Of a DNA stretch of 64,000 nt, positions 1 to 64,000 are shown in pieces (position 1 is the stretch's first letter; the number at the start of each line of letters is the position of its first letter). The position numbers and the translations under genes are program-made. Under the pieces are notes generated by a model. That model did no database searches and was not told the DNA's origin. It was given only the letters and a program-made list of their open reading frames with translations. Source of the DNA: Gnetum montanum (taxonomy: Eukaryota > Plantae > Gnetophyta); the NCBI GenBank assembly GCA_015680685.1, contig MNCI01000312.1, positions 489,164 through 553,163 of the forward strand, read 5' to 3'.

Positions 1-58
1 AAAACCAGAATCTAAACACTTTAAGAAGTTGATAACTTGAACAAAGAAGAATATCAAG

Positions 59-28100: not shown

Positions 28101-28419
28101 TAAGACCAAATAAAAAACATGCATGAAGAATTTAAGGGTTTGAACATTAAAATAAGCTTTATGATATATAATAGGGTAAAAGTCATTATCGGGCCATCTT
28201 TTGTCTATTTTTTACTCTATAGTCTTCCAATGCACAATGTGTTGAAATGAAAGTTATGATAGGCTTTTGCAACAAAATCAACAATAAAACCTTTAAAACC
28301 TAAACACTCAATCCTCTACCCCTATTAACAATTTTGTGCACTTGAACTCAAAGTGCACGAAAGTGCAAGGGAGGAAAGCCTTCTCTATGATAGAAATGTT
28401 GGAAAACAAAATACCAAGT

Positions 28420-30241
28420 TCAAATTTTTGAATTCTAGATAGTCAGTCCCATCATACGCTCCCATTCATGCTATTCTAACCTAGGAAACTCCATCAACAC
28501 TAGGGTTTTGACTTCAAAAGGGGGTTAGAACCTTATAACATTTAACATTTTGGGCATCCACACTGGGACAACCCTACCCAACATGGAGCAAGAGGGTAAC
28601 ACTCATACTTATTCCCAAGTGCCCATCAAGCCTAGATCTTACCCTTGGGGTGGGCCCACATGACCTAGAACTTTTCTAGTCACCTTCGACAGCCTCAAAA
28701 CCTCATCAAACCTAGTCGAAATTGTTCCAAACTTTTAAATTTGGTTAATCCATGCTAAGAGGGGCTTCCTCTATGCTGGCCAACATGGATGTGTAGGGGA
28801 AGACCTTGAATAGCCAAAATTAACCACCTAATTACCACTTTTTGACTTACAAACCCCTTAATAGCCTCCAGTAGCCTAACTTTGCCTTAAAATAAGTTGA
28901 TTTCAAACCTATACTCATCTCCATGTTGGTTAACCCCTCCTCCACACTACCCAACATGGAGCCAATGTGAAAACCCTAGGGGTATGCAATAAAACCTATT
29001 TTATAGCCAAAATAGCCTAATAACCTACCCTAGTAACTTCTAAATCCTATCATAGCCTACAAGAGCATTCAAACATCCCAAAATAGACCAAAATGGTAAA
29101 AATTCCATCACCCCTCTCCCATCCATGGTGGGGTCATCCTATCCAACATGGTGAAAAGGTAGGGATGATCACATGAATACTTAGAAGCCTTAAAATTGAA
29201 GGATTTCAATGTCAAATCTTAACCTTCAATCCTCTAGAACACTGGTAGCCTCAAAACCTCATCGAATCTTGTCAAAAGTGGCCCAGAACATGAATCCAAG
29301 TTCATCCATGGTAAGGGAGATCCTCTTCCATGTTGTCTAGTGTGGATGGAGAGGAGGATAGCTAACACTTCCAAGATTGACCGTGAAATTAACTTTTGTT
29401 GACTCTTTAACCTTCTTAGAGGCTCTAGCAGCTAAAACTTGATAAGAAAATCATCCCATTTTTAGATCTTTCTAGCTTCCATGCTAAGCATCCCTTTCTT
29501 CCACATTAGCTAGCATGGAGCCAACATGGATGCTAATAGGAAGGTTCTTGAGAGATCATAAACACTTCAACATAACACCAAATTTCCTTGTATCAACCCT
29601 ACAACACTATCAACACTTTTGAAAGCCACCAAACTAGCTGAAAATGATCAAAAACTACAAAAACCTAACCCTTTTAGGTCCTCCACATTGGTCAACATGG
29701 AGCCAACATGAAATTAGAGGAGTAAGCCCAAAAACTATCTAAAAACCCTCAAAATTACCAAATTTTGTTCCTAGGCTTCAACCATCAACATCAGTAACCT
29801 TAGAGATGTGCACACATAATCAAAATTAACCAAAAATAGTTAAAATTTGATCCCTTCTAATCCTCCACATTGGCCAACATGGAGCTAGCATGGAACCAAG
29901 GGAATAGCTCATGAAACCACATAGAAATCCTCCAAACAGCCTAATTTTGATCCTAAACCCTAGCCCTCAACACTAGTAACCTAAGGAGGTAACATGCATG
30001 GTCAATTGCTACCAAAATTGGCCTAGATCTAAAAATTATAATCTATCCATGTTGGAAACCCCCTCTTCCATTCTAGTTAGTGTGGAGCCAATGTGGAGGA
30101 GTTGCCTTTTTCCCTCCAACAACAAATTGACATTCCAAAAGATAAAAAACCTATATCAACAAAGCCTAGCCCCAAGTTTATGCCTTTTAGACTCCATTTT
30201 AGCCCTTAAATCTCATCAACTTCCATCTTTCATGTGGGAGC

Positions 30242-30281
<40 letters not shown>

Positions 30282-31110
30282 NNNNNNNNNNNNNNNNNNN
30301 NNNNNNNNNNNNNNNNNNNNACGAAATGTAGAATAAGAGGTAGATAACCTTGCATGATCTTAAATAGCTTCTAAACTTGACCAAAATTAATCAAAAACTT
30401 TGAAATTCAAAGCTTGTAGCCCTAAGAGCTAGGAAACCTAGATGATTTTCTCTGCAAATCATCCTAAGAAAAAAAGGCAAAGGCACCCCTCTCCTCCACA
30501 TTGGCTTCATGCTAGCCAATGTGGATCTAGCGTGGAAACTACCCTAGACTTAATTTAACCCTCAAAACCCATCCAAAATGGCCTTAAAATGTAGCTAGGA
30601 GATGCACCATACCAAATATTAATCCCAAATGTCCATCCTACCCTGTTTGATCCTATTTTGGCCTATATTTAGATCCTCTACATTGAGCCCCTTCCTAGCC
30701 ACACTAGCTATCATGGAGACAAGGGGGTGTAACTTCAAGACCTGCTGTTTGGCCTTTTCAACCTTCAAAATGATCATTTTTGAAAGAATTTTCCCTACAC
30801 TACCTTGGGAAGTCCCTACAACCATAACTTTAACCCTCTAGATACTTTCCTTAGTTTTCACACTAGCTCCATGATGGCTAGCGTGGATCCAACATGGAAG
30901 ATATTTTTAGGCTTAAAAGAGGGGTTCCATGGATTGAAACTAACACAAAACATAGCCTACTCCCTTCCCTAGCTAACTGTTTTAACATTCAAGTCATCAA
31001 AAGTTGAAAACTAGTCAAAACAAGCCTAGGAAACTATATGGATACTTCATCCACATTGGGAGTCATCCCTTCCACATTGGCTAGTGTGGAACCAACATGG
31101 AAGCCTTAAA
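28420..31110. repeat. Degenerate tandem array, period ~180-190 bp, with palindromic core
   Basis: Core ccacattggc(c/t)a(a/g)catggagccaacatgga or variants at ~28578, 28779, 28951, 29143, 29328, 29501, 29683, 29864, 30068, 30496, 30680, 30860, 31070. Confidence 0.85.
30244..30320. other. Poly-C run followed by assembly gap (N 30282-30320)
   Basis: Homopolymer abutting an N run. Confidence 0.95.
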
Positions 31111-38200: not shown

Positions 38201-39654
38201 CATGACCATGTCTACTATACATATCTATAACCTAAAATCACAAATGGGTGAATACCCCAACGATCATACAACATCAAAGTAAACTAGGTCCAATACCACA
38301 ATGTAACACCCTGCCCTTGCTAGGGCAGGGTGATGCCTAGGATTAAGTAATCTCACAACAAAACCATGATAAATAAAAACCAATGATGTGTAGAATACAT
38401 GATATTAAGGAAGGTCAAACTACACTAAAATTTCCTACCACACCAAAAACTAAACATACATTTCAATTTATAAAAATGCATGTCTCTACATAAATCAAAC
38501 TATGTTGCTAAAATACAAAAACACATAAACATCATCATCATATATATAAGAGTACAAAGAGTTTCATACAATGATACATAGTCCATACTACTATACATGA
38601 AAATATACATTAACCAAGCACTGAAGATTTTTCCCTCCTCTACTCTCCCTCTCCATGCTCATCTAGACTCCTACACCTTTCATCTATAATTAAAGAAATT
38701 CACTACATAACTCAGTGGGAAGCCTTTACACTTTCCCTACTAAATGGTCAACAAGTGCTGCACTAGAGGAGAGGAGTGGGGTACAAGGCAACCTACAAAA
38801 ACTATTAGTATTACGCATGTGCAAAATAACACACACACCATATCACCCATAATGCTAACATAATCATTATCAAAGAGGATAGATGACTATCATACAATCA
38901 CAAATAAAGCCATTGTCTGACATCGTCTATCATGCCCATGTCATCATACCCACAATATACCATCAAACAATCCATGATCCACACGATAATAATCCAATCA
39001 TAACATATATTATCAATGATATGACTCACAAACCGATACTATCATATACATAGTCCATGAGGTTGTTAGCATATCTGGACTCAGTGTAGCATGTGAAATG
39101 TTGTAATGAGTACTCATAACAACCATTCCCTATAGCTCTTTTATTAGTCTTTTATTTATCCAACCAATGTAATCGTTTGTCAACCTTTGACTCATAACCA
39201 CTAGACTTTTAGATGACTGGTGATAGGGATGAACACACATATGCCACATACCAACCATAGGGATGAACACACCTATGTTCTTCCACTCTCAAGGTGAGGC
39301 CTAATATAGGAGCCTCATCAATGCATTATAGTGGGGGTCAATCCATACTACCTCCAAGGTGTCTCATCACCAACTGATCCACACCCTCATGCTAGCACCA
39401 CTCACCAACGACCATCACAAGCATCATTGTGAAGACATGTACACATTCTAGCTAGCTTAAGTCAATGCATGTCATAAGCACAACACATCTAAACATAACA
39501 TAACATAACCACATATATCCATATCTAATAGTTACAATCATTCCATGAAAACAAACCACAATTTGACAAAACAACATTAATGCCAAGATATGACAAAACA
39601 ATACCATATTTCTTAGACTGCATGCAATTTCACACAAATGATCACTATAATAAC

Positions 39655-40548
39655 TGATGAGACGCTATTCGCATAGGCTGCGATATCGCGTACGCGATAT
39701 CGTGTCTTCCCTACGATATCGCGTACGCAATATCATAGTCCATCGTCATATCTATAAATAAGACGCAGCACTCCCTTGTTTGGGGATCCAAGTTTTAGAG
39801 TAGTGAAGCTCTAGTAGTTTGATCCCTCCAGAGTTAGATTTTTTCCCGTGTTTACCCACAGTGTGGTGAATGTAATTGTACGGTGTCTTTATTCGAGTGT
39901 GCCGTACTTGGACACGCACATGACCAGCAATAAAGATCGAGATTACTTCATCATTGCAGCATTCACTTTGTTATTTATTTATTTGTTATTTATTTAAATT
40001 TATTTACTATTTTCTCTCTCTCATCCTTAAACTCCTAGAATGCAGAAAGAGTACGACTTGATTACAAGCATTTAAGTGTAACTACTTGGTAGCCCAGTGG
40101 TGTAGCTAGGATCTACGCTTGGTAACCCAGTGACGTATTTGGGATCTACGCTTGGTAATCCCAGTGGCGTACATAGAATCTACGCTTGGTAGTCCAAGTG
40201 GTAGTCATGCACGAAGTCCAAGATGTGTACGGTTGATCAAGGAATCGGTTGCTTGTCGCACTTAGGCTAGATTAGATTCTCTTACCCTTTTCCTCCTAGC
40301 TTAGCTTAGTTAAATATTATTTTCCACTGCCTTCACGAGTAGCATAGATTAGGAAACACATCATACACCTCATTTGGACTAAACCATATGTGACAAATGC
40401 AATACTAGTCCAGGTGGGAAGACAGCGAACTACGACCTAAGGATAACTATCTAGGTGCCACAACTAGTCCATCTACGGAGTTTGATTGGATCGCGCGTGC
40501 GACGCTCATTTTGTATGGTTGAGTGTAGGGGTACCTCGCCACTCATCA
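39655..40548 (+). repeat. 5' LTR (894 bp)
   Basis: tgatgag...ctcatca; direct repeat of 47263-48178. Confidence 0.95.
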
Positions 40549-40549
40549 T

Positions 40550-40567
40550 TGGCACTGTTGCCAGGGA
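40550..40567 (+). promoter_or_regulatory. Primer-binding site, tRNA-Asp type
   Basis: tggcactgttgccaggga differs by three transitions from the Athila PBS TGGCGCCGTTGCCGGGGA. Confidence 0.85.
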
Positions 40568-40679
40568 TGGTGCTAGTTATCTAGATTAGTTATATCATAC
40601 AAGGTCACTGTAAAGGACTTAACAATATATCTCGTAAAAAGAAGAAATTATAAAACGTCACATAAATTCACACACAAAA

Positions 40680-42375
40680 ATGCCTCTCCTACAAGATGAT
40701 AATGAAGCCACACTTAGTGAGGAAGTTCATTGGAGGACCAATGAGCTATATGATGATGAAGATTGGAGTATACAACCTGAAGTGGGAGTTTCCTATAAGA
40801 ATAAACAAAAACAACGTCATCCTAACACACAAAAGCCTAACTTACCCGATGACGATGAACCCCCACTGGCCACTACAACCTTAACACAAATACAAGAGGC
40901 CATTCAAATCTCAAGTAGGCATCGTAAAGAGAGCCATCTACCCAGGCTCGATTTAAATAATTTTCCCAAATTTTCAGGAGGCTATGACTTAGATCCGCAA
41001 CAACACTTACTAGCCTTCTACGATGCCTGCACATGGAATAACATTGATAACAGTTGGCAAAAACTTAAGCTCTTTCCTGTGACACTCATTGACCAAGCTA
41101 AAGTATGGTATAGATAGTTAAAACCAAATTCGATACAACGCTGGTCAACAATGGTAGAAGTATTTAATGAAAAATATCAAACCTACACAAGAGTGTCAAC
41201 CTTGAGGAAACAAATCCAAGGATGGAAACAAGAAAAACATGAACCCTTGGACATGGCCTTAGAAAGATATTATGCACTGTTAAACAACTATCCAGGCCAT
41301 GGGTTTTCTGAGGAAAGGCTAATGTACCATATCATTGATGGGCTACGTAATGAAACAAGAGAGACCTTAGGAACGTATCCCAAGGTCAACTATACAACCT
41401 ACGAACCCATGAAATTCAAGAGCTTATTAAGTGGGTAGCAAAAGAAGAAGGAGAATTAGTTACATGGGAGAGTGTTGAAAAACATCAANCATATGCCTGT
41501 ACAATCACCCCAAAGGCCAATGCATAATCTTGTTACATCTACATGAGCATTGAGAAAACACGTTACATCCAGAGTTTGTACAGAAATATTGTGTTCGATC
41601 ATAGTGGCAACAATCCCAGTCATGGGGGAATCCACCCTTAGACTGGAGGCACCCTTCATACCATCTGAATCTAAATGCTTATCACGTTCAACACCCTGCT
41701 TCTTCAACTGGGCCAACATACTCTATCCCACCACCATACCATTCTCCACAATACTATCAGCCCATACCTCTAACACAAACACCACCTTGTGCACCTTACA
41801 TTCCTCCTAACTTTCAACATTCTCATCCTTTCCCTCCTTCCACAATGCCACCAACTATTCCTAAGGTGTTTGTACCATTGTAACCCACGAACAACACTTG
41901 TGCTGCTGCTACTAACAGTAGTGAAAAGCCTCCTCAACCTCAAAGGTTCCCTTTCTTTAAACACAGCCATAGGAAGGGACAACATAACTCTGAGGCCACT
42001 ACATCTTCCAACATAGCACAAGTCCAACAATGTGGTGCACCCTTACCTTCAAACCCAATGCCTCATGTAACTTCATCAGGGCCACCAACTTACACTCCAA
42101 TAACCATATGGCCCAATGAACACAACCATGGGAGGCATCAGCCCAATCCTTGCATACCATCTAACGGTCCTAAACATCATAGTGGGTCAACTTGTTATCC
42201 AGGAACTACATTGTATGAAGTACCCCATTGTGTTTATTATAAAGTGTGTGAAATTCAAGGTGATAAGTATGGACTAGTTTCAATATTTCCAATATGCAAG
42301 GATCCTCATTTCCCATTTATTAATCCTTGCCATACTCAACCATTTAGTTATGGGGGATATCCCCCATTTCAATAA
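40680..42375 (+). pseudogene. gag: gag with Pro/His-rich C-terminal extension
   Basis: FPKFSG...DPQQHL..F...LKLFPVTL...AKVWY...W..M...FNEKY...KQEKHEPL...ERY...PGHGF (Athila-like capsid); in-frame stop and later frameshifts. Confidence 0.85.
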
Positions 42376-43756
42376 CAAGCAAGATTAATAAATATTTTTC
42401 ATTTTCTTTGATTTTACAACTTTTTGTTTTTCAGTTTTTCATTTTTCAACTTTTTGTTTTTATCTTTTTATGTGTTCTTTTTCCATTTTTTGTAAGTAAT
42501 CTCATCTACGAATAAAACACTCATGTGGATCGTTGGTTGAGGTGTGTTTTATGTTATTAAGTCATGAGTGGTCAATTATTGGAAACAGTGAGCCCATTTC
42601 ACCCACTCATCCACTCTACAAATAAGAGGTTCTGTTCGAGGGTACAGTGATATTCTTGAAATTTCTAGAACTTAACATTAATTTTGTGTTCATTGTACCT
42701 AGAATGAAGAAGGACGGACCAAGAGGGAATGATTAGGGTGTGACATCAAGGGGACTTGTGGATTCTTCTTGGTGACGTCTGTGGGAGTTATCATGCAATA
42801 TGGTTGTACTAAGATCCTTGTAGATCTAATGAAAAATGGGAGTAAGAGTAATCAAAAGGGCACTTGAAAATCAAATGCTGTTCTATGGGGTCCCACTAGA
42901 AAGACATGCACCCATGCCTGAAGGTTGGCGGCTTCTCTGGATTCATTAAAGTGATAAAAAAAAGAGAAAAGAAGAAGAAAACAAAAAGAAGTGCCATAAA
43001 ACAAAAATCACTCCTCCCTTGTACTAAATGCCAAGTGATCGTATGCCTTGTTGTTATGGTCCTCTCATAGTTGTTCATCATGGGATGAAACAATGCGATG
43101 TCACTGATTAGAAGGATGGACTTGGTCTTGATCTTGGAATGATGGGTTAATGACACCTTAATCATGCTTTACACGTAGGATCATTGTGCCTTGGGTCAGT
43201 TACCTCATGTCCCGATCTCTACGATCCCTTTCTCTACTTCGTCTCATCTTACTGTTTATGTAATTGTTGCTCGTGTTCTGTGTAGCATAGAATTTTCATC
43301 TCATTTCAGTGATATTTATATGTGTGTGTTTTGTGGAGTTAGTGCAGATTACATTTAACCCTTCTAGTGCCCACGAACACTTTAAGTGTGATTACACAAG
43401 GGCATAATAGGTTGAAACCTACTTTGGGGAGGACCCACTTGTGTAATTTTTTGTAATCTTCACTAATTCTCTAGTTCAAACACACAATTTCTTACCCTTA
43501 GCTTAAAATTTCATCATTTTCTTTCCCTTTTATTAACCCTCAAAATTTTAACGTTCCAACGTACCATTACATTCCCTTTTCTTCATAACCGCCAAATTTT
43601 TAATTGCTAAATTCACATCCTTATCATTAAGCGTGCCTCTCGAATTAATGAAATTACCCTATGATATCTTCATACTTGCCCATGTCCTCATCTTACACCA
43701 TTAATTTCAAGAAAATCATTAAAAATTCGATATTTGTCTTGTGTCCCACATCACTG

Positions 43757-43836
43757 GGGACGAGATATCACATACGCGATATTCCGTCCCACGTGATATC
43801 GTGTACGTGATATCGCGTCCTATTTACCTATAAATA
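43757..43836 (+). promoter_or_regulatory. Putative internal promoter: GATATC palindrome array plus TATA box, matching the LTR U3 module
   Basis: gagatatcac-atac-gcgatattcc...gtgatatcgt-gtac-gtgatatcgcg followed by ctataaata (43828-43836); compare 39680-39760 and 51399-51467. Confidence 0.7.
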
Positions 43837-44304
43837 GAAACCCCCGCTGCAACACTTAGCATCATTTTGCCATTTACATGAGGGGAATTTTTGAAATTTT
43901 TCTCTACAACTTGCAATTGCATGACCCTTGTTTTTTCACTCATATCTCGCACGCTGGTGCTTCGATTTTAATTCCGTTTCAACCTGTTTGAACCTGAAGT
44001 GTTCAGTTTAGTCGTGGGAGAGGGACACCTACTGAAAAGTGCCTAACTTTTTTGAAATTTATCATCGCCCAAAGGACATTAATTAGGGTAATTAATATTA
44101 ACACTTAGAGAAATTGTGCCAAAAATCATACGACCTTAAGTATACCGGGAGATTAAATTGAAATCCACCTAAGTCATAGGACCCCTTATTATAATTTTCG
44201 GGCACAATCACACGATAACATAAGATCTTTAATTAAAGGCATGTAGTAAGGTATAACTTAATTTTGAAAACCACCTTACTAACGTTTGGCCCGTGTGATT
44301 GCAA

Positions 44305-47094
44305 ATGGCCCCGAAACGTGCTCAGCGAGAGGGTCCTGCTCAAGGTGAAGCGAAACAACCTCGGAGAGGTGGAAGACGAGTCCCTGCCAGACAACATGCA
44401 GAATAGGAGGTGCAATCATTTAGCATCCATCAAGAAGAACCTCCTATAGGATGGTCTGGGTAGGCAGAAAGAGGAGCTGTTGCTGCCCCTAAACTGGGAC
44501 AACAACTCACGTTGCCCCTGGAATGTGTTCAGGCTATCCATATGAAGTCCACAATTGCTGCGGTGATCGTGGAGCTTAACTTCAAACCTTTTGCAGAGTT
44601 TGCTCCTAAGGCTGTTAGGGATCACCTTAAAGGATCTCCCTTATGGCTTGTCCTCTCTGAGTGCGGTGCCTGGTACTTAGGTGAAATGTACCTGTTCTGG
44701 CACAATAAGCAGCAAGGCACCATGGTTAACATTTGTGGTGTGACAGTTGACTTTTCTGCACAGGCAATTTCGGAAGTTTTAAACCTTTCGAATTCAAGCC
44801 CCCATGTTGCTCGGTTATCTACACGATTAGACCCTGATGTGCAAAAGGATTGGTTAGAGAAGGCTTATGGCAGAGATAAAGCTTTTGGTGAGCTGATAAT
44901 GGAAGAGCAGGTTTATTTCAAAATTGGAACCTATCACCTCTTCCCCACAAAAGGTTTAAAAAGAATATCAACGTATGCGATGAGAGGATGTGCAATGTTG
45001 ATGGGAAAGGTTAATGCCAACCTTCCCCATCTATATTTGACAGAGAAACTAAGCCGATTCGAAGAACAGAAGTCAAGGAAGATGGTGTTGCCTTTTCCCT
45101 GCCTTATCAGAAAACTGTGCCAACAGGCTGATATTCGGGGATACACAAATGACGTCCTCTGAAAGGCCTAAAATGCTTCTTATGTTGAATTATTAAAGGT
45201 GCCAGCTCCAAGAAAGAGCATTGGCGAAGAGCTAAGACTAGATGAAGAAGAAGAACAGATGACTAGATCACCTGCAACTCAACTTGCAGGACCCAGCCAA
45301 CCTCCAGCCACAGGTCCCAGCCAACAATAAGAAGCAAGACCCAGCACAGGCCATGATTAGCCGCCGTAGCCGCAAGACTACAGACCATCGATAAGCCATC
45401 TTAGGACCATCGCCAAGACGGTTAGTTGGGGAACCCGTGATGATGCAAATCTCTTCCACGTCATCGATGATGTCGACCAGCCTACTATTTCATTAGATCG
45501 CACAAGAGGAGAATTATCCATTCAAAAAGGAGGAGGGGAAAGTATATGGTCACAATAGATCTCAGGAAATGCGGCATCTTTTCAAGTGCAGTTATAGACT
45601 AGTAAAGGGGCCACTGTGGTGGTCATGCAACACCAGGATGCCACAGAAGCTACTGAAGTGGTCGCTGACCACATCAAAGAATCTTTCAATGTACTTGTTG
45701 TGCCACCGGTAGATCTTTCAGGAGCATGAGATGCTCAAACTCTTGTCAGAACCTCAATGACTCTTGCAGAACATGAGGATGTAATGGACAAATTGCTTCA
45801 AACAGGACAAGTTTTGACATCTCTGTTTAACATCTCTCAGCATGTAACAGCAATTCAATCAGACCTCATTTCCACAAAGGGGAAGCTGGTCATATCCAAA
45901 GTAAGGGCAGAGCATGCTAAAGCTGAAGTGCAGAAATTACAAGAGTAGCATGTAGCCTTACAACCAGCACAGCGGGATCCTTTGCAATTTGTTCCCGCAC
46001 ACCAGCTAGACAACTTTACAATCGAGAAATTAACAAAGTTAATTACAAAAAATAAGAAGGTGGTAGGAGAAAAGGAGATGGCCACTTGGGATGCCTCCGC
46101 AGCTCAAGCACAAACTCATGTGCATCTTAAGGCACTCATGGCCTTAGAAGAAGAAAATAAGCAGCTAGTTGCAGATAACCTTAGGTTGACTTCTGTGGAG
46201 AAACAAAAGAATGTTCTCGATGAACACTTTCATCAGTTACGAGAATAGTTCATTCAAGTCAACTGAGATGTAAGCTATTTAGCTAGAGAAAATTGAACCC
46301 TCTCAATGGAGGAGGTACGTGCTGTTCGCCAAAAATCAACCATCGAGATCAGCACATGGCAGAATGAGGCTAAACGACACGAGAAGCTGAAGGAGCATTT
46401 CCGTGATTAGGTGGGGATGTACAAACAAATCCTGGAGAAGGAGATCCATATGGCCAAGGCTCAAATCAACAACATCAGCGCTCAGAACACTGATTGGAGG
46501 GCCATATTGGACACTTACGCCTTTGCCCACCAAGCGGAAATTAAGAACCAGGACCTGCAGATCCAAGACCTGATAGAGTACATGGAGTTGGCAAACCTTA
46601 GATATGCCAACCTCGCCATGTTAACAGCAGGATGCCCGAGGTCAGAGTTTGAGCAGCAGGTAGCTTCCACCCATATCAAATATGAAGCAGAATTTGTAGA
46701 GCGAAAGAAGCTAGCTGGGGAACTAGATGTCGCAAATTCTAAACTTGCGGTGGTAAAAGAAAGCTACCAAGGATAAAAAGATGTTGCAACCGACTTGGCT
46801 CGATGGCTAATAGAGCTTCATGAATTTAAAGACAAGGCCAGAGCCTATGAAGAGGAATGATGGGTGTTCGCAGCATGGTACGTCAAAGCTAATCAAATGT
46901 TCCTGCAACTACCCTGTCCGTGGGAGGTGCCAACTCCATCAAACATTGGAACATTAATATGGACGGCACAAGATCCTCAGACTAAAGAGGAGAAGCTCCA
47001 GGCCATTCTTTAGCATCATCAACCTTCCAAGCTCGGAGTACGTGACAAGGGGAAAGCACCCATGGAGGAGCCACCGCCACAAGGAACTACATGA
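44305..47094 (+). pseudogene. Accessory (env-position) ORF, ~929 codons: basic N-terminus, putative plant transposon protein domain, low-complexity linker, long coiled coil
   Basis: Starts MAPKRAQREG, ends DKGKAPMEEPPPQGTT*. ORF-track pieces at 44512, 45757, 45982 and 46411 share one frame; roughly 20 internal stops, no frameshift. Motifs VNICGVTVDFSAQAISEVLNL and LPFPCLIRKLC resemble Athila extra-ORF proteins. Confidence 0.8.
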
Positions 47095-47250
47095 GTTCCA
47101 CATTTTTGTAGTTGTAGTATTTTTTCTCTGTGTTGTGTCTTCCCACACTGCAGCATTAGTCCATTTCTTTTTCCAGTTAATAATCCCATACCTATCCACT
47201 ATGTAATCAATGAAGCTTGTTCTCCTAACTCGAGGACAAGTTTTTATTCA

Positions 47251-47262
47251 GTCGTGGGGGTA
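47251..47262 (+). promoter_or_regulatory. Polypurine tract
   Basis: gtcgtgggggta immediately before the 3' LTR; same context at 9722-9733 and 15569-15580 (minus). Confidence 0.75.
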
Positions 47263-48178
47263 TGATGAGACGCGATTCGCATAGGCCGTGATATCACGTC
47301 TACCGCAATATCGCATCCCCCGCGATATCACGTACGTGATATCGCATCTTTCCTAAGATATCGCATACGTGACATCGCAGTCCGCCATCATATCTATAAA
47401 TAAGATGTGGCACTCCCTTTTTTGGGGATCCTAGTTTTAGAGTAGCAAAGCTCTGGCAGCTTGATCCCTCTAGCGTTAGATTTTTTCCCATGTCTGCCCG
47501 CAGTGTGGTGAATGTAATTGTACGGTGTCTTTATTCGAGTGTGTCGTACTTGGACACGCACATGACCGGCAATAAAGATCAAGATTACTTCATCATTTCA
47601 GCATTCACTTTGTTATTTATTTATTTTTTATTTATTTAATGTTATCTCTCTCACCCTTAAACTCCTAGAATGTGGAATGAGTACGACTTGATTACGAGCA
47701 TTTAAGTGTGACTACTTGGTAGCCCAATGGTGTAGCTAGGATCTACGCTTGGTAACCCAATGGTGTATTTGGGATCTACGCTTGGTAATCTGAGTGGCGT
47801 ACCTAGGATCTATGCTTGGTAGTCCTATTGGTAGTCGTGCACGAAGTCCAAGATGTGTACGATTGATCAAGGAATCGGTTGCTCGTTGCACTTAGGCTAG
47901 ATTAGATTCTCTTACCCTTTTCCTCCTAGCTTAGCTTAGTTAAATATTATTTTCCACTACCTTCAGGAGTAGCATAGATTAGGAAACACATCATACACCT
48001 CATTTGGACTAAACCATACATGACAAATGCAATACTAGTCCAGGTGGGTAGATAGCGAACTATGACCTAAGGATAACTATCTAGGTGCCACAACTAGTCC
48101 ATCTGCAGAGTTCGATCGGATCGCGCGTGCGATGCTCGTTTTGTATGGTTGAGTGTAGGGGTACCTTGTCACAAATCA
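47263..48178 (+). repeat. 3' LTR (916 bp)
   Basis: tgatgag...aaatca followed by the TSD. Confidence 0.95.
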
Positions 48179-49496
48179 ATAACCTTTAAAATGATATATG
48201 CCCAAAGAAAAAACCAATCTCACAATTAGAAATTACTTCCCCAAATGATCTTAATGACACTAATTTTACCTAAAGTGAACTCTTGGAAGCAAAGTTCTAC
48301 ACTTTCAAAGTTTGATTAATAAAATAATATTAGTCTCATCAACATTGCATATCATATTCTACAAGTCAACATTATACCATACATCACATATATATTACTA
48401 TACAATTCATTCCCAAAATCATACAATTTTGAGAAATAGGCAAAATAACATGTCCAACCTTAATCTTTGAGCTATGCACCCCACATGCCCACATAGCATA
48501 ATCATATACACTAATCTAGCATAAAAATACAGGAAAAAGGTAAAGAAAACCCACAAATTAAAATTGTTAGACAAAGAAAAGCCAAAACAAGGAAAAAACA
48601 CTCAAATTTTGGTAGAACTCCATTTCACTCCCAACAAGTTCTGCACCCACATAGATATGACTACAACAATTCCAAATCCAGGTTCAAAGCAAGCAAAAAC
48701 CATCCACAAAGCTCAAAATTTAGAAAAATGTGAAATAGAATAATAGAGAAGAAAGAAAAATGAAAGAATAGGCTCATGTGCATTTCTATTAACATGAACA
48801 GAAAAAAAATAGAAACCCAAAATCCAATTTCTATGGTTAAGCAGTGGTGAGGCGCTGGATCAGAAAAACAAACATATAACCTATACTTTTACTATATGAT
48901 TTTCCTTAAAATAAAAAAAAAACCAATGATGCATTTCTTTTCTCACGTGATGTGAGTTCACTTTTTCTTTTCTTTTTTTCTTCACTTTGAATTGTTTATT
49001 TTTTTTTTAAACGAACTATTTTCATAAGCTATCTTTATTTTTTTCCTCTACAACTAATGTCATGAACTTTAATCATGCGTAACAAACACACTAAGACTCC
49101 AAATTAAAATTTCTTTGAACCTATGAGATCCTTATCATACACTCTACACATTCACATGTCAAAACAACACCCGAACATCACATAACATAGCACTATAGTG
49201 CAAATGCATAAATATCAAAATCACACATAAAGCATAAAGACATACCAAATACGTGCTCTTGTACCCCAATCCAACACCCCTACCAGCAGCATCACTTTTC
49301 TAACACATCAAAAGAGCTAGTATACATAATCACGTTAGCTAAGCATGTAAAGACATCATAATTGTAACATAAAGACAAAGCCTCATAACATATAAAATAC
49401 ATTAAATCATCCCCAACAATCCACCAGGACTCCACATGTAATGTATAAATTGTAAGTGTATGACCATACCTAATGTCTCTAGATGGGGATGTAACA

Positions 49497-51373: not shown

Positions 51374-52418
51374 TGATGAGACGCGACTTACACTAGGCCG
51401 CGATATCGCGTCTTCTCCTGCGATATCGCGTACGCGATATCGCGTCCCGCCGCCATATCTATAAATAAGAGGCGGCACTCCCTTCATTTCCCAATCCTGG
51501 CTAGTGTAGCGAAGCTCTGGCAGATTGATCACTCCAGAGTTAGAATTTTTCCCCATGTGCCCGCAGTAGGAGTCCTAGAGTGAACGGCTCTTTATTCGAG
51601 CAGCTTGTAACCTGAACCCAAGTTGTGTACGACAATAAAGACAAACTTGTTTGGATAAACCTTGCAGCACGTGGTTTCATTTATTGCTTTCATTTCCTGC
51701 TTTCCTAGTGCGTTCAAGTACGACTTGATTACGAGCATCTACGGACGTGTACGGCTAGTCAAGGAATCGGCTGCTTAACGCAATGCATGAGTACAACTCA
51801 ATTACGAGCATTGGCTGCTTGGTAACCCAGTAGCGTATTCCAGGATTCTGCGCTTGGTAACTCCAGGGTCCAATGTGTACGGCTAGTTGAGGAATCGGCT
51901 GCTCATTGCTAGGCTAAGAACGTGTGATAAGTACGACTTAGTTACGAGCACCCACGGGTGTGTACGGCTGGCTAAGGAATCAACTACTTATCACACGTAG
52001 GCTAAATAGGTGCCTTAGTACGACCACTTCGAGCACTTGCGTTACGTGTGGCGATCCCAGTAACGATTAGCGTTTGGTAAGCTGCAGTTGCATAGTTCAG
52101 GGTGTGTCTAGTAAGTGGGAACGGATGCTGACGCTAGTTAATTTAGACTTAGATCTTAGTTAGAGTTAGTTTAGTTTTCTCAACCCTTCCTCTCACATAG
52201 CTTAAGAGATAAAACTGAAAAATACCAAAAAAATCACATACCTCAGACTTGCTTAACCATACACCATGACACATACAAGCAACCCTGGGAAGACAACGAA
52301 CGATTAACCCCAAGTGTTTCTTGTGGCGTTAAGGCATTTAGTCTGCAGAGTTTGACCGGATCGCGCGTGTACGCTTGTATTCGTATGGTGGAGTGTAGGG
52401 ATACCTCGCCACTCATCA
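51374..52418 (+). mobile_element. Solo LTR (1045 bp) of a sister subfamily of the Athila-like element
   Basis: tgatgag...ctcatca; TSD CTCCC (51369-51373 and 52419-52423); no PBS or PPT. Confidence 0.95.
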
Positions 52419-52849: not shown

Positions 52850-55800
52850 ACTATAGAACATTTCCATGTCATGTAATCCATGCGTCATCAATAAAACTAT
52901 TTCTTCCATGGCCGGGGTCCCCAATTATAGGGCTAGTGCCACCTTAGTTTACATGATCCTAGTTCCATAGAACTTTGTGGCATCCCCACTCCAATTTGAG
53001 AAAAAGGATTCATTAGCCAGCATTGGGTCCCCTTCCAAGCATGGTAGGACCTCATTCTAGCTAATCTGCTCAACCAGCCTCCATAGCTCCTGATTTACCC
53101 AATATGCCACGTAAGCTGGCTCATATGTAGGCGTTACTCCCATAGCAGTAGTCACTTCCTACCACGCATGCTCCGCATTAAGCAAGGCCTATCCAAGCAC
53201 TGGAATATAGTACAATCTGAAGATAGAACGATTGAAAATTTTTCAAACCTTCCATAAAATAAGCACTACTTTGAAGTCCCTCATTAACTACACAGGGCCA
53301 TGTGATCTCACAGCTTGCCAACTATCCTACACATACAAGCATTAATAAAAAATGCATTATCATCTCAGGGCTATTGGAGCATAATGAGCACTCATCATTA
53401 ATGTGTAGCCCTCACTACCTTAATAACACATGAATAGGAAGCATGTTATGCTCAATTAACCAAATGAAGACCTTAATCTTCTCTAGTAGCTAGCCCTGCC
53501 AAATGCATTTCCATCCATCTACCAGCATATACAAGCTCTGAATAACCAACCGTAGAGACTCCCCCATCAAACCTTGCACCAGCGTGAATTATGCATGTTC
53601 ACAAAGTATCTGCCATAGAATCAAGTCATGGGGCCCCACTTCCCAACATTGATATTTATGTGTCATTATCCTAATCCATTGGGTAGCCCTTGCATCCTGC
53701 TGAAGAAGTCATATTACTAATTGTTGTTACTCCATCAGAAATTCATTTTCAAATTTAAAATACCTAACTCCCTACCCCTTGAGCTGCACAATAGTGCCCC
53801 AACTGATTAAATGCACTTTGATATCCCCTCTTCCCTAGAACACACAAAATTACTTATTAATTGATTCAGTTTCTGAATGATAATCTACAAAGAAATAACC
53901 ACCAAGGCCACAAATCTTGCAATAGCCAAAAGAACCCCTGACACCAAGGTAATTCTACCCTTTCTAGTGAGGAAGTGATTAACCCAGTACCCCATCCAAG
54001 TCTCCATTTTCTAGATAAGTTTATGCCACATTTGTTTCCTCCCCCAATCAAACAAAAAGATGTCAAGATATGAATCCTAAGAGAAGGTAGAATCTCCATA
54101 CCTGTGATATGTGACTCCCCACCCTAGGGTCAACATTGATAAAGTGAATTGAAGATTTTCCCTAATTTATCTCCAACCTGATTTCCAAGGCTAGATGCCT
54201 AAGAGCCCAATCAATCCTCTGCACCTGGAGAATAGTTGCTCTAGAAAGCAACATGGTATTATCAGCATAGTGCTCCATCAAGCATTCAACCCCTACAACC
54301 TCAAGACCGCAAACCCCCTAAGCCTTACAATAGTATTGAAGGAGATCCATCATGATAATGAAAATCCAAGGTGAGAGTAGGTCCCCTGCCTCAACCCTTG
54401 TCTAGGGGAGGAGAGCCCCCACAATCTCCCTCCAATATCAAAGGAAAAATCTGCTGACACCTGAATGTGTATGCATAGGCTAATGAAGGTAGGGTCAAAA
54501 CCTTTTAGGTACATAATAGTAGATAGTGCCTCCCAACTTATCACATCATAAGCCTTAGTGATATTGAGTTTCAGGCATAGTCTTGGGAATTTGGTGGTTT
54601 GCATAGCATGAATAATCTTTGGCATTAGTATTGCTTAATCCTATAGGAATCAGCCCCAAACAAATCTAGCCTAATGTTCACCAACAACTTTTGGCATCAA
54701 TGGCATTAACTGTCATATGAGTAACTTTGAAAAGATCAAGATCAACACATTACAAACCCTAATAGGGCTAAAATGGGCCGAATCAAAAGCATTAGGCAGC
54801 TTAGGAATAAAAAAATTATGGAACAATTAATCTCCCATTGCACGCGCCTCCTAGCCAACATCAAGGATATTTGGCCCAAGAATGTCTGCAAACTTCCTAA
54901 AGAATTTTAGTTTGAGCAATCCATCCGGAGGAAATTTTCGGGGCCCCTCCTTTTCTCCCTAGTATCCTCCTCAAATCTCTTATACCAAAGGGCATAACCA
55001 AGGCTTAAGTAGCAAAGAACATTCAAACCGAAATAGGGGAGGAGGCCCCTGATGAGGCTTGCTAAGACAACAAAGAATGGAACGGTGATTTGATGCTTGT
55101 CATTCCTTGCCTAACACTTGCACGTCAAATTGTAATAAAAGTTTAGAATTCATCCAAACTTGATCTATCCTAGAAAGAAGTTCATCCTTTTCCTGTCTCC
55201 TATTGCTCCACATGAAGCAGTAGTTTGCAATATCCATATCCACCAAGGAGTGGAGATCCAAGAAGTTCTGAAATTCTTAGGCCCCCAAATGGCCAAGGTA
55301 GTTTGTTTCTAATTTCTCCTAAGGGTGCAGGTGCTAGTTGAAATCCTTGACAATGATCCAATGCCATTTGTTAGGAACCAACACTGCCATCCAATTTAGC
55401 TCATGCAACCTCAACTCCCACATTTGGGCCCTATAGAAATTGGTCAACTAGATGACACTTGAAGGCAGAATCATGGTAATACTCCAACTGAAAGAATCTA
55501 TCAAGGTCATCCATGGCTTCGCCAAGATCACCAAACCCCTCACATGCCCCTAGTATAGCACCAATTGTAGATTCCACCCTCCAATTGTAGGTGGTAAGCC
55601 TCTACACTCTGTAGCTTTGTTTCCTGCAAACAAAGAACATCATAGGCCTCACTTTGCATAATCTCTTTCAGGTTATTCCTTTTATAGGGTGTACCTTGAC
55701 CCCTATAGTTTCAAGATAATGTCTTCATGCATGACCTACAAAATGCTTCTTATAGACCTCTTTCAAGGTCGATTGCATTCCCAAGTTAATATCCAACTAC

Positions 55801-56980
55801 ATCTTCTTACTACGAGCAAGCAAACTAGAGGGTTGGCCAAGCCTACCCAATCCTAAAGAATCAAGGAAACTTCTAGGTCCTCTAACTTGCATGGCATCAT
55901 TTCCAACATAAGGGGTAAGGGTCCCTCACAAACAACTGAAATCCAATCCCCCAATGGGAGGAGCTTTACCCCCTTTTTTGTTGGGGAGGTAATGGAAGAG
56001 ATAGCATACCCTTTCTAAGGATTATCCCCAATAGCTGTGAGGGCCTATGGACATCCTCGACACCTCACCTAAATCCACTCTCCATCTTTTGGTGTCTGTG
56101 CTTTTGGAAGTGCCTTGGCTTTACCCCAAAAATAACAAGTAGCTGCCCCATGCCCGCTCTTCCCACAAATGGGACAACCATTCCCTAGTGGAGTGACGTC
56201 TAGTTGCTCCTCAACCATGTTCTCATACTAGACTCGAACTATCTCTTCATCTGCCGAGAGTTCCAAAATGATTTCCTTGACCAAATCTTTGGAGGATAAG
56301 GACATCCACACATAGAATTGAGCAAACCCCATCTTCTCCATCGAGGTCATGAAATCTATCAAAAGAGATGAACTCCACAAATAAATCGGCAAGAGTTCTT
56401 AGAAAATCCGAACTCCACATCTCCCAAGGAATCCCAAAGATGCAGATCCAGATTGGCACCTTCAAGAAGAGGTCCACCTCCCAATGCACCTCTAGTCTCC
56501 ATTGCGTAAGCACAAGCCCTCTGGCACCGTAAAACCATAGTCCCCCAGAAGCCCCTTGTCACGATCCTCTAGAGATTTAAACACAAATAACAAGAGGTCC
56601 TTAGAAAGACTACGAACCTCCACCTCTTTTAACCCTCGAGTGTCAAAGACACACTTCCTAACCAAATCCAATTTAAGTCAAGCCCCGAAGGACACAAACT
56701 TGCCTATTAAGCTAGGCTCCATGGTATGAACCCCATCCCCTAAAGGTTTGTGCACCTGAAGCCGCATCGCCCCCTCTTGGTAGGAGCAAGCCTCAATGCC
56801 CCAATTCCCTGGCCACCAACCAGCCCCCAACAAACCCAAACCTCACCATCGCCTCTAGTTCCACCACCATGTGCGCTAAGGCCACCCTCCTCAAAATCGC
56901 CAACATGGGCCCCCTCGTTGGACCCAGCCCTTGGACCCAAGCTCATGTCTACGCTTGCTCAGCCTCCCATTCAAACAAGT
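52850..56980 (-). mobile_element. Decayed near-full-length L1 LINE (ORF1; ORF2 with endonuclease, RT, zinc knuckle and probable RNase H)
   Basis: ORF1 VPIWICIFGIPWEMW and CPICGKSGHGAATC; ORF2 starts MKTLS*NYRG (~55728); RT KLNITKAYD, GLRQG; boundaries approximate. Confidence 0.8.
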
Positions 56981-59379
56981 TCTCTTTGCCAGGATGATGA
57001 GATTATCATCAATCACACTTCTTATGTCATTAACACACTTACATTGGAACTATTTGTTTTTGTAATATAGTTCAATTGAGGAATATTACAAACATCAAGA
57101 TAACAACGGTCTAATCCAATTCATAACCAAACGATAAACCAGTTACAACATCATAACAAACAACAATTCATCTGGTTTATAGTTTATAGTTTTGGGGACA
57201 ATGCAACTTTTATAAAGACATAATATATTTTTAGAAAACGCTTAAATGTCTATCATATATGTGTACTTCTTTACATTGCCACCTGGTCTGCTCCATTCAT
57301 TTTTTTGGTAACCTTTAACTGTAGGGTAACGGTATGTATTTAAGATTGCAATAAGTATTGCATTGTATCTGGAATAAAGTTTATGCATCCATATATTAGC
57401 ATTTTACGGTTCCGGAATTGTCATTTAGCAGCACATTAGACCTGGATACGTCGAACATCACACAGTAGTAAAATATGGCGCACCTTACTTGTATATGTGA
57501 TTTATGAAATTTGGAAAGAAAGCAACAGTGAATTTTCGAGGGTACTGATAGCAGAGTAAAGAGAGTATCAGTTGGTCAGAGAGAATGTCACTTATATTGA
57601 AGGAGATTTAACTACCCAAGTCTTTGAAACTAGGAAGATCAGAAAGCTGTAACTTGAGGTGTAGAATGAGTTGGTACCATTAATGATGGTAATTGTTTTT
57701 GGTTTTTCAAAAAATATTAGATTATTATGTAATGGGCCTCCCATTATGTTCCTTGTTTGATCTCTAAGATCTCAAGAGATTTCTTTTTGGACTCCAAAAG
57801 TTTTACTAGTGATAAAAATCTTCTTTTTACTTGCTCAACAAAACCATAAGCATTACTGAAATATTACAATCTTTTTACAAATGTTTTTATGAATACAATG
57901 AACATGGAGACGATACTTTGCACAGATATTTTTAGAATACCAATTTCAGTTATGTAGGGCTTCCTATCATGTGGTGTAAATTCTGAAAAATAATTTTGCA
58001 AAATCTTCTCTCGTTTATTGACGAAAGTCTCTTTCATTGTTTCAGGCATCTTTCACTCTCTCATGGGTATGTAAGGGCAATAAAAATACACAGCATGAAC
58101 ATGATATTGTTTCATTTGAACGTGGCAACATTACCACAGCTATGCGTAGGACTAAACAGGTGAATCAATAAATATTCATGTTTTTTTTAATACCCATTTG
58201 GTTAATCCTCGCATGGCCTGAGGAATGCCAACTTATAATATCTTGTTCGAAAATTAGCAACTTTGCTTTAACTATTCAGTTAATGAGTTTGTTAATTTGG
58301 AAGTTACCATTAACAGATTATTGTGAAATGGGACTCTCCTCCACGGTCGGTCCTCATCTTAACAAAACCAAACTCCAAGTCGGTTGAAGTTATATGTCAA
58401 AAAATGGTTATGTATGTGTTCTGATTTAATTTTCAACGTCCACTGTCCAGAGCTATTTGTTGTCTTTTATGTTACGTGTATGGTTGAAGGGATGGTTGAT
58501 GTTATTGTTTATTATTCTTTACTTGTATGCATGTAACTTTGGAACACCGATCTATTTTGTATTTGAGTTTCAATACCGAAAGCACATGATGCAAAATGCT
58601 AGGAAGACGGCAAAATGATTTTATTAATTAAAGCTGGTTGTCAGACACGAAAATTACATACCAGAGGTGTATATTATTGAAACTTTGATGCTTTCCAGAA
58701 GGTTGAATGTATGTTCAAAACAACCTTTGGCTTCTTACCCACAAATCTTAATTATATTTCTCTATAATTTTAATAGAAATTGTTAATTAAGGTTTGTATA
58801 TAACTTAAGGAACACGAAACGACAAATACAGAGACCTGTAAACATAGCAAGAGAGCCTTCTAAGCGATGCCAATAAACGTAATTCTTGTCAGAATACAAG
58901 CCATGTAACATATACAACTTTATTCTTCATGGTCTCACTTCAAATCTATTTTCACATTCCTGTGTACAGATAATAGATTCTAAGGGACAACACCTTTATG
59001 GATTTGTGTCAAGCACCACACCTCTTTACTAATTAATTATTAAACTATAACTAATCATTATTTAAATTGACATAGTTTCACGTCTATAAACTAAAACCTT
59101 ATGGTGTTGAGATGGATACAAACTTTTCGTATTCTTTAACACCTCGCCACAATTTCAACGTTTGAAACAGGGTTAGAGATTTTACTTTACCATTGATTTC
59201 TAACTTTGTGGTCTTTTAAGTCAATCTCCCTTATAATATTGATCAAAAAGATTTATTAGAGTAATTACTTCTCCATTAACAAAATTTATGGATTGTCGAT
59301 TCTGGAGCTTCATGATAACATATAGGCAACAACCCTTTTGCAACTAGTGGCGGGCATTTGATTCATGAACTTTATCTTA

Positions 59380-60700
59380 TCTGCGCTTCATCTATAGCTC
59401 TTCTTCTAGCTCCCTAGCCTGCTGCTCCACTTCTTCTTCAGCTCTTATTTTTCATTCCTACTCCTCCTTGAGCTAGTCTTCTCGAATATGAAGATACAAG
59501 GCATCTTCAAGCTCACTTTTGATGAAAGCTTCCCTTAGCTCCCATTGGTGCATGGCCTCCTTGCTCACCTCTTGTCAGCATTGCTCCTCCTACTTAGCCC
59601 ACTCCCTATGCTCTTGTTCCATCTTTTGTTGTATCTCTTCCTACTTGGCATGTTCTTCTACTACTACCCTCTTCTCAATCTCAGCTATGGCCTTAAGCAA
59701 ATCTTTTGCATATATATTCGGAAGCTCCTAGTAGAGTGCTTCTATGGCATGTGAGATTTGCTCTTTAATAGAGACTTGTTGATTTGAAATAGAGCCTAGC
59801 GAGTTTGTGCTCAACCCTTTTTCCGCAATACCCACCCCACCCCTGTCCCAATCATGAGGCCCCTACACCAAGGAGGAGGAGCCCCATCAAAGAGCTAATG
59901 CCATTCACAAACCATTATGAACTATGACAACCTAGTGAATGAAGAGGCAACAAGATGCATGACCTTCTAGAGGGCCAAAATAATACCTGAGTGGTATGCC
60001 TTGCCCAAACAAGCAAGCAAGTAGAAACTTGGGGATATTAACATTGCTAGACTAGATGAAATACTTCTTAACCAACTTGGCGATGTCTTGCCAAAGCTGT
60101 GGTATGGTAGATTTTGAAGCTTGCCTACTACCAATTTTCAACATTGGCCCTTCAAAAAAAACCCTCAATATCTTGCAACACCCAACCAATGGGTAGAATG
60201 ACCTTTCCCACATTCAACACACCTAGGTAGTCAGCCATAGTAGTCTGAGTAAGGTGGATGCAGACACCCTGAAATGTCTTAGCCTTACCCCTCTAGAACC
60301 TAAAGAAAGCATCATCCACCAAGTTAGGATCACCTACAAGCTAGGGCAGGAGGTTCCCCCAACTGATGCAAACCACCAAGCTCCAACATTACGCATTGGA
60401 CTGAAAAACCCCGCACTCTAGTTCATACATGGGCATTACTTCCATGGTCGTGGTCACCTCATACCATAGGAGGGCACCAAGATCCATGACCGTAGTAGGC
60501 AACAATAGTAGAGAAGATTGGAAGATACAGTCATTCCAATGATAACAAATGCACCAAAGCACAACAACCATATGTGTGTCACCATGCATATGCAAAGGCA
60601 ACTTAAGCTTAACCTCCTTCTGCAAAGTGGTGAATGATTTTTGCAGCTATGCCACATACTAGACAAGTGTCTTCAATTTGTAGCCCATGGGTTCTTAGTA
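59380..60700 (-). pseudogene. Decayed ORF, possibly plant-mobile-domain-like plus coiled coil (TE accessory ORF)
   Basis: VLWCICYHWNDCIF...LLPTTVMDLGALL loosely resembles the PMD N-terminal motif; Glu/Gln-rich tail at 59400-59750. Confidence 0.3.
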
Positions 60701-60749
60701 CTACCCTCATTGAGAGTGCCCCCCTATACATAAACCACAGAAAGCATTT

Positions 60750-63600: not shown

Positions 63601-63647
63601 CTGCTAGGGAACCAGGTTTTAGTTCTGTGTGGATCAGTTATGCTAGT

Positions 63648-64000
63648 TGATGAGTGGCGAGGTACCCCTACACTCAACCATACGAAACGAGCATAGCACA
63701 CACGATCCGGTTGAACTCCGCAGACTAAATGCCCAAACGCCACAAGGAACGCTTGGGGTTAATCATTCGTTGTCTTCCCAGGCTTGCTTGTATGTGTCAC
63801 GGTGTATGGTTAAGCAAGTCTGAGGTATATGATTTTTTTGGTATTTTTTGGTTTATCTCCTAAGCTATGAGGGTGAAGGGTTGAGAAACTAACTAACTCT
63901 AACTACAACACTAAGTCCTAGCGTCAGCATTCGTTCCCACTTGTCGTACACACCATGAACTGTGCAACTGTGGCTACGAAACGCTAATCGTTACTGGGAT
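63648..64000 (-). mobile_element. 3' end of an LTR of the same subfamily as the solo LTR; runs off the window
   Basis: Reverse complement closely matches ~52053-52418; no PBS adjacent. Confidence 0.93.

What the first reader, a model, noticed from the sequence alone, without database searches (positions are those of the whole stretch)
43757..44307. The LTR's GCGATATCGC palindrome plus TATA module is re-used internally ahead of the accessory ORF
Seen: U3 carries 3-6 (G)CGATATCG(C) palindromes directly before ctataaata, including a perfect 24-bp palindrome at 51420-51443. The same four-unit array, with gtac/atac spacers and ctataaata, recurs at 43757-43836 without other LTR sequence. About 440 bp later come a branch-point-like tactaac (44277-44283) and an acceptor-like tgattgcaa immediately before the ATG. 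Inference: a second, co-regulated promoter giving a spliced subgenomic mRNA. If the accessory protein binds the CpG-rich palindrome, this would form a positive-feedback or anti-silencing loop, analogous to VANC proteins of VANDAL transposons.
Basis: partly seen in the sequence, partly recalled or inferred. Interest (0 to 1): 0.75.

Follow-up and report, generated by a model that had tools for sequence, protein, structure and literature searches.

The report
Retrotransposon reuses its LTR promoter internally
A plant-type retrotransposon carries a second copy of its end-repeat palindrome array and TATA box ahead of an extra gene whose splice site appears to be used in related copies; the copy likely works as an internal promoter, an arrangement with known parallels, and binding by the element's own protein is untested.

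Summary
Inside a decayed, pol-less, Athila-like Gypsy element (39655-48178), four 14-bp palindromic units and a TATA box (43757-43836) repeat the LTR U3 module with the same paired spacing (14/17/14 against 14/19/14; 76-78% identity; 0 of 1000 shuffles). It is a family trait: DNA contigs from many other copies cover it without a dip, and one contig from a second species label spans flank, array and TATA. This copy's acceptor lacks AG, but 88% of DNA depth from other copies has it. RNA reads join mixed upstream sequences exactly at the ATG, so the acceptor is likely used. No transcript start was seen, with no working positive control, and no read links the internal exon to the ORF. The accessory ORF is PF20167-like, with no VANC domain. 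LTR-array CpGs decayed as fast as the rest of the LTR. Best reading: an old LTR-promoter paralogue driving a spliced accessory mRNA (0.55). The self-encoded feedback loop is unsupported (about 0.15). Precedents: Sirevirus repeats before env, the Athila6A ENV promoter, Tor Penv and the foamy-virus internal promoter.

The parts
39655..48178 (+). Element A: pol-less Athila-like Gypsy LTR retrotransposon, 5-bp target-site duplication at 39650-39654 and 48179-48183
   Evidence: LTR identity 89.5%, K2P 0.10
39655..40548 (+). 5' LTR; four-unit array 39678-39738, TATA 39752-39760
40550..40567 (+). Primer-binding site (begins TGG one base after the LTR); likeness to tRNA-Asp is recalled, not tested
   Evidence: for the tRNA-Asp PBS of Calypso and Diaspora
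40680..42375 (+). Decayed gag with proline-rich tail, broken by stops and frame changes; no pol follows
   Evidence: PF03732, E 1.2e-14
43757..43820 (+). Internal array of four 14-bp palindromic units, spacing 14/17/14; also folds as one long imperfect inverted repeat
   Evidence: present in other copies
43828..43836 (+). Internal TATA box, 22 bp after the start of the last unit (26 bp in the LTRs)
43837..44304 (+). Predicted leader and intron; best donor-like GT at 44088 lies in the segment with the highest DNA depth (44055-44104); donor use not seen
44277..44283 (+). Branch-point-like tactaac, 22 nt before the acceptor
44302..44304 (+). Splice-acceptor position directly before the ATG; no AG in this copy, AG in most other copies; RNA records join here
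44305..47094 (+). Accessory ORF, 929 codons in one frame with 18 internal stops; basic N-terminus, PF20167-like domain, likely coiled-coil C-terminal part (judged by eye); no membrane-spanning stretch
47250..47262 (+). Polypurine-tract position before the 3' LTR
47263..48178 (+). 3' LTR; six-unit array 47286-47380, TATA 47394-47402
51374..52418 (+). Solo LTR B of a related family, 5-bp target-site duplication; three-unit array 51398-51445 holding the 24-bp palindrome, TATA 51459-51467

Best explanation
The internal module is a second copy of the LTR's palindrome array and TATA box, shared by many copies of this element family, and it likely acts as an internal promoter for an accessory-gene mRNA that appears to be spliced at the acceptor just before the ATG. 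Shown: same unit, same paired spacing and TATA as the LTR; presence in other copies; AG at the acceptor in other copies; RNA records joining at the ATG. Inferred: the module arose long ago by duplication of the LTR promoter (U3 end and start of R), since the sequence after the TATA has drifted as far as LTR families have from each other while the array stayed close to the LTR's. Inferred: transcription starts about 25-35 bp after the TATA, a leader intron is removed, and one DNA-binding factor, most likely a host transcription factor, switches on the LTR and the internal promoter together. This copy is dead and shows methylation-type decay.
For: Array cluster in 0 of 1000 shuffles. Internal against LTR modules 76-78% identical in the three comparisons that include the TATA (74% for 3' LTR units 2-4), LTR modules among themselves 80-83%. 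DNA run X1: 10,355 contigs laid, 7,867 under 95% alike; summed depth 16,410 on the upstream flank, 16,979-30,399 over the array, 19,848 and 15,902 downstream; one skipping contig at depth 5.5. X15 record 9 (organism B) spans 43699-43841 with 22 differences. At least half of the sampled words are held by 8 runs, 4 organism labels, 3 studies. AG at the acceptor in 53,740 of 61,421 DNA depth, 24 of 29 X21 reads and 11 of 12 X24 reads. X15 depth rises from 26 to 282 exactly at 44305 while DNA depth falls from 88,456 to 34,456; loose ends lie before 44305 in 3 X15 contigs and 12 X24 reads. Relative C2 lacks both the ORF and the array. An ENV ORF promoter is described for Athila6A.
Against: No pile of RNA starts near 43860. 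None of the 3 joints and none of the 15 of 49 shown ends at 44305. The letters before 44305 in joined reads agree at only 0.55-0.56, so they come from several upstream exons, possibly host genes or diverged subfamilies. X21 shows no rise at 44305 (32 to 25). LTR-derived contigs add to depth over the array. The array and TATA stretch is among the lowest-depth parts of 43680-44304, so most relatives sharing the downstream leader (depth up to 290,052) have a different module or none. X15 is only guessed to be RNA, and 395 loose-end rows were not shown. Two ATGs (43878, 43921) lie in the predicted first exon of this copy. The literature also has Athila ORF2 spliced from the full-length RNA.
Confidence: 0.55

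Rival explanations
1. The array is an enhancer-like or chromatin element, or a leftover, and the accessory mRNA is spliced from the LTR-started genomic RNA, the classic env model of Athila and Bagy-2.
For: Acceptor use fits this equally well. Described for Athila and Bagy-2. No internal start was seen.
Against: A TATA box is kept at promoter distance behind the array. No joint from the 5' LTR to 44305 is among the 15 of 49 shown. Athila6A has a described ENV promoter.
Confidence: 0.2
2. Self-encoded loop: the accessory protein binds the palindrome in both promoters and activates them or keeps them unmethylated, like foamy-virus Tas or VANC.
For: The architecture matches (array in the LTR and before the ORF). 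The ORF stayed in one frame in a pol-less element. 9 of the first 30 residues are basic and there is no membrane stretch. A PF20167-bearing Athila ORF in sunflower is predicted nuclear. PMD-type domains occur in related Ogre elements and resemble VANC's DUF1985.
Against: No DUF1985, PMD or DNA-binding family at E up to 1. Array CpGs decayed like the rest of the LTR (7 of 15 against 18 of 34, p 0.76), and 5 of 7 internal departures from the 10-mer are C>T or G>A. The older family C keeps decayed units of the same period although its LTRs are only about 60-68% alike to A's, whereas VANC targets turn over fast between families; this fits a stable host factor better.
Confidence: 0.15
3. Neutral relic: an old LTR fragment captured by template switching and carried along passively, with the acceptor used only by host transcripts reading through intronic copies.
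For: The sequence after the TATA resembles an older LTR family. Joined reads have mixed upstream exons.
Against: The array stayed 76-78% alike to current LTR arrays while its flanks are at shuffle level, and other copies hold more perfect units. Passive decay would not spare the array alone.
Confidence: 0.07
4. The array matters as RNA: a hairpin for dimerisation, packaging or small-RNA production.
For: The internal array folds into one long hairpin, z -7.0 as RNA and -6.2 as DNA.
Against: Any tandem palindrome folds this way, and the LTR arrays do too (z -3 to -8). It does not explain the TATA box kept behind the array.
Confidence: 0.03

Closest known systems
Sirevirus (Ty1/Copia) repeated motifs, Bousios et al. 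2010, PMC2829016
   Same: CpG-rich palindromic repeats cluster just before the LTR TATA box and again upstream of the env-like gene; elements without that gene lack the internal copies; an internal promoter was proposed.
   Different: Other superfamily; CGG-CCG core in 12 of 13 motifs, absent here; those authors could not conclusively identify an internal promoter, whereas here a TATA box follows the internal array at LTR-like distance.
Arabidopsis Athila6A ENV ORF promoter (PMC4977677) and spliced Athila ORF2 mRNA (PMC7197481)
   Same: Probably the same clade; 3' sense accessory ORF with its own promoter region and a spliced subgenomic RNA.
   Different: The passages read do not describe that promoter as a copy of the LTR promoter or as a palindrome array.
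Oikopleura Tor3b/4b Penv (PMC4402516)
   Same: LTR element with a RACE-mapped second promoter for the third gene.
   Different: Animal element; env RNA unspliced; true membrane glycoprotein; no shared array in the passages read.
Foamy-virus internal promoter and Tas (PMC13220597, abstract)
   Same: Best model for the loop: accessory proteins come from an internal promoter, and Tas activates both it and the LTR.
   Different: A retrovirus with no homology shown to this ORF; binding is demonstrated there and untested here.
VANC of VANDAL DNA transposons (PMC5735166)
   Same: Short motifs in tandem in non-coding parts of the element, next to an accessory gene.
   Different: DNA transposon; the 9-base motifs quoted are AT-rich or not palindromic and change fast between families; DUF1985 protein; demethylation shown. 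None of these was found here.

Membership tests
Athila clade (Ty3/Gypsy, OTA) | RT/RH/INT phylogeny, and no extra RNase H | not testable with these tools
   The element has no pol.
Athila clade (Ty3/Gypsy, OTA) | LTRs, 5-bp target-site duplication, retrotransposon gag | tested here: met
Athila clade (Ty3/Gypsy, OTA) | PBS complementary to tRNA-Asp | tested here: inconclusive
   A TGG-starting PBS sits at 40550; the match to tRNA-Asp is recalled, no tRNA sequence was compared; one search gives tRNA-Asp for Calypso and Diaspora.
Athila clade (Ty3/Gypsy, OTA) | 3' sense extra ORF with an Athila-ORF-related domain | tested here: met
   PF20167 E 2.8e-11, 44.1 bits, just under the cut-off of 45; the same family occurs in a sunflower Athila ORF.
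env-like membrane proteins | Transmembrane helix | tested here: not met
   Highest 19-residue hydropathy 1.18, none above 1.6.
Sirevirus RM system | Palindromic repeats before the LTR TATA and upstream of the extra ORF | tested here: met
Sirevirus RM system | CGG-CCG core signature | tested here: not met
   The core here is GATATC.
Sirevirus RM system | Copia/SIRE lineage | tested here: not met
   gag family and accessory domain are Gypsy/Athila-like; no pol to place.
VANC anti-silencing system | DUF1985 or PMD-like protein domain | tested here: not met
   No such Pfam hit at E up to 1. A remote fold relation stays open: models had mean pLDDT 33 and 47.
VANC anti-silencing system | Local protection from methylation at the motifs | tested here: not met
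   Indirect test on one old copy: CpG loss 7 of 15 in the array, 18 of 34 elsewhere, p 0.76.
VANC anti-silencing system | Sequence-specific binding of the motif by the encoded protein | not testable with these tools
   Needs a binding assay.
Foamy-type internal promoter and transactivator | Mapped transcription start at the internal TATA | tested here: inconclusive
   No pile of starts there, but none listed at the LTR start either.
Foamy-type internal promoter and transactivator | Encoded protein activates both promoters | not testable with these tools
   No data.

The most novel reading that the evidence does not exclude
This Athila-like family runs a foamy-virus-like circuit in a plant: a duplicated LTR promoter drives a PF20167 protein that binds the 14-bp palindrome in both promoters, so pol-less copies keep the gene to switch on or shield their own family. 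That would give the first molecular function for Athila-type accessory ORFs.
Probability: 0.15. Interest if true: 0.85.

Novelty: new variant of a known kind. Interest (0 to 1): 0.5.

Why it matters
The function and expression route of the extra ORFs of plant LTR retrotransposons are a long-standing open question. Here one element family offers a defined 14-bp site, repeated in both the LTR and a TATA-bearing internal module, and an acceptor that RNA data suggest is used. That makes both the internal-promoter idea and the self-regulation idea directly testable. The parallel with Sirevirus repeats in the other superfamily suggests a convergent design.

Tried and rejected
No genome is held for this window, so full-length copies could not be compared. 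A degenerate array pattern gave 11 metagenome loci; 4 of the 11 match the window, each only over the motif itself (24-33 bp), so they were treated as chance. Protein searches: 0 of 651, 0 of 135 and 0 candidates; 2 fragments among cluster representatives; 0 of 3 viral stretches. Two AlphaFold models were too poor for a fold search (mean pLDDT 33.1 and 46.9), so none was run. The protein atlas gave no answer. A weak PDB sequence hit to the oomycete effector PSR2 (E 1e-4) is a sum of four stretches, none significant alone (best 10.7 bits), and was rejected. One X15 contig's letters before 44305 resemble 43977-44006 at 18 of 30 positions by eye; the chance over 440 offsets is about 0.06, so this is a lead only. 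The bacterial promoter scan and tRNA scan were uninformative. Three look-ups of earlier findings returned nothing. PMC3817159 and PMC3276544 gave no start-site mapping in the passages found.

Full report
Context. The window is a repeat-rich eukaryotic stretch, inferred to be plant from the element types; the host was not identified and no genome is held. Self-comparison and end inspection define element A at 39655-48178, with 89.5% identical LTRs, a 5-bp target-site duplication, a PBS and a polypurine-tract position. It holds a broken gag (PF03732), no pol, about 1.9 kb of non-coding DNA and a 929-codon accessory ORF. The ORF lies in one frame with 18 stops and matches PF20167 just under the cut-off. 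A solo LTR of a related family lies at 51374-52418.

Observation. A cluster of three or more units arose in 0 of 1000 shuffles. The true unit is a 14-bp palindrome arranged in pairs: spacing 14/17/14 inside, 14/19/14 in the 5' LTR, 17/17/14/19/14 in the 3' LTR and 20/14 in the solo LTR. The TATA follows the last unit start by 22 bp inside and 26 bp in the LTRs. Over the last three units and the TATA, the internal module is 76-78% identical to the LTR modules, which are 80-83% identical to each other. Its flanks match the element's own LTRs no better than shuffles (8 of 8 comparisons). The 90 bp after the internal TATA match the LTRs of an older family C in the window (p 0.002, 0.016, 0.016; these three are not independent) but not the own LTRs or 4 unrelated TATA sites (7 of 10 comparisons, p above 0.1). 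I infer an old promoter duplication in which the array stayed in step with the LTR.

Other copies. Eight public runs from 4 organism labels and 3 studies hold at least half of the sampled words of 43300-45200; X1 may be the source sample. On 43680-44400, run X1 laid 10,355 contigs, only 395 of them 99% alike or more. Summed depth is 16,410 just upstream, 16,979-30,399 across the array and 19,848 and 15,902 just downstream. One X1 contig at depth 5.5 and one X15 contig at depth 3.4 skip the array. An X15 contig spans flank, array and TATA (43699-43841, 22 differences, 2 gaps). The second unit, imperfect here, reads as the full palindrome in most of the depth (15,929 and 18,266 of 20,450 at two positions), though LTR contigs contribute. 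Limits: depth is no copy number, and the array and TATA stretch is among the lowest-depth parts before the ATG, against up to 290,052 at 44080-44104. Most relatives therefore carry a diverged module or none; which of the two could not be told. In the window, relative C2 shares gag and non-coding DNA with A up to about 43470 and then lacks both the ORF and the array; it is one heavily decayed example.

RNA. This copy has no AG before the ATG, but other copies do: 53,740 of 61,421 DNA depth, 24 of 29 X21 reads, 11 of 12 X24 reads. At 44305 the depth of X15 (guessed to be RNA) rises from 26 to 282, X24 from 16 to 23, X21 falls from 32 to 25, and DNA falls from 88,456 to 34,456. Loose ends lie before 44305 in 3 X15 contigs and 12 X24 reads, and not among the 6 rows shown for X1 or for X21 (395 rows not shown). 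This points to splicing at the acceptor. The first exon is unknown: the loose letters agree at only 0.55-0.56, none of the 3 joints ends at 44305, and none of the 15 of 49 shown does. No pile of starts lies near 43860. None of the 8 of 12 begin/end rows shown lies at the LTR start either, so the test has no demonstrated power.

The feedback idea. The ORF has a basic N-terminus and no membrane stretch, but no VANC, PMD or DNA-binding family, no usable fold and only two fragmentary relatives. If the arrays had stayed unmethylated, their CpGs should have decayed less. Between the two LTRs 7 of 15 array CpGs and 18 of 34 other CpGs were lost in one copy (p 0.76), and 5 of 7 internal departures from the 10-mer are deamination-type. 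This is a small test on one old copy and cannot exclude a loop that worked while the family was active. Family C keeps decayed units with the 14-bp period, which suggests a long-lived site and so more likely a host factor.

Comparison with what is known. Sirevirus elements have palindromic CpG-rich repeats before the LTR TATA and upstream of env, with an internal promoter proposed but not identified (PMC2829016; passages and section 9; its additional files were not seen and may bear on this). Athila6A has a described ENV ORF promoter (PMC4977677; passages), and Athila ORF2 is also described as spliced from the full-length RNA (PMC7197481; passages). Tor elements have a mapped Penv (PMC4402516; passages). 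Foamy Tas activates both the internal promoter and the LTR (PMC13220597; abstract). VANC features come from PMC5735166 (passages), PMC13547354 (passages and section 10), bioRxiv 10.1101/2024.09.27.615353 (passages) and PMC12844716 (passages). Accessory-ORF background comes from PMC7264820 (first third of the text), PMC11728184 (passages), PMC6317226 (passages) and PMC1142308 (passages); PMC4728375 was seen only as a listing. Ten searches showed no paper describing an LTR-like palindrome array with TATA in front of an Athila accessory ORF, or this motif in a transposon; the library lacks most subscription journals, and no supplements were read.

Verdict. A real, family-wide feature and a new variant of a known design. 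An internal promoter is likely (0.55), acceptor use is well supported in related copies, and the self-encoded loop is possible but unsupported (0.15). Interest 0.5.

Noticed in passing
window 10687-21700 (minus strand) and 8630-10677: Older related elements (family C; gag 51% identical to A's). C2 lacks the accessory ORF and internal array and has a LINE (ORF 11855-15496, RVT_1 and zf-RVT) inserted in its 3' LTR. Its U3 keeps decayed units with a 14-bp period.
   Followed up: partly
window 44055-44104: Highest DNA depth of the leader (260,006-290,052, about ten times the array), so shared by many more relatives; it holds the best donor-like site at 44088.
   Followed up: partly
window 39708, 42794 and 43814, runs X21 and X23: Loose ends that look like a library adapter (recalled, not tested) attach at or near GATATC-like sites, probably mis-priming; such chemistry could fake transcript starts in the arrays. 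The 9 reads at 43814 could instead mark an antisense 5' end near 43821.
   Followed up: no
window 43758-43820: The whole internal array, including a few flanking bases, forms one 63-bp imperfect inverted repeat.
   Followed up: partly
window 63647-64000 (minus strand): Another LTR end of family B, 85.6% alike to the solo LTR, cut by the window edge.
   Followed up: no
window 28690-31100: Degenerate repeats with a period of about 560 bp (families D6 and D13).
   Followed up: no
window 44632-44913 (ORF stretch): Weak sequence hit to the oomycete silencing suppressor PSR2 (E 1e-4), made of four individually non-significant stretches; judged chance.
   Followed up: yes
window 40490, 48120 and 52360: A half-site of the palindrome recurs near the 3' end of each LTR.
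   Followed up: no
window 1-3265 and 53000-62000: Decayed Gypsy pol-like and LINE-like remnants, judged by eye from the sequence.
   Followed up: no
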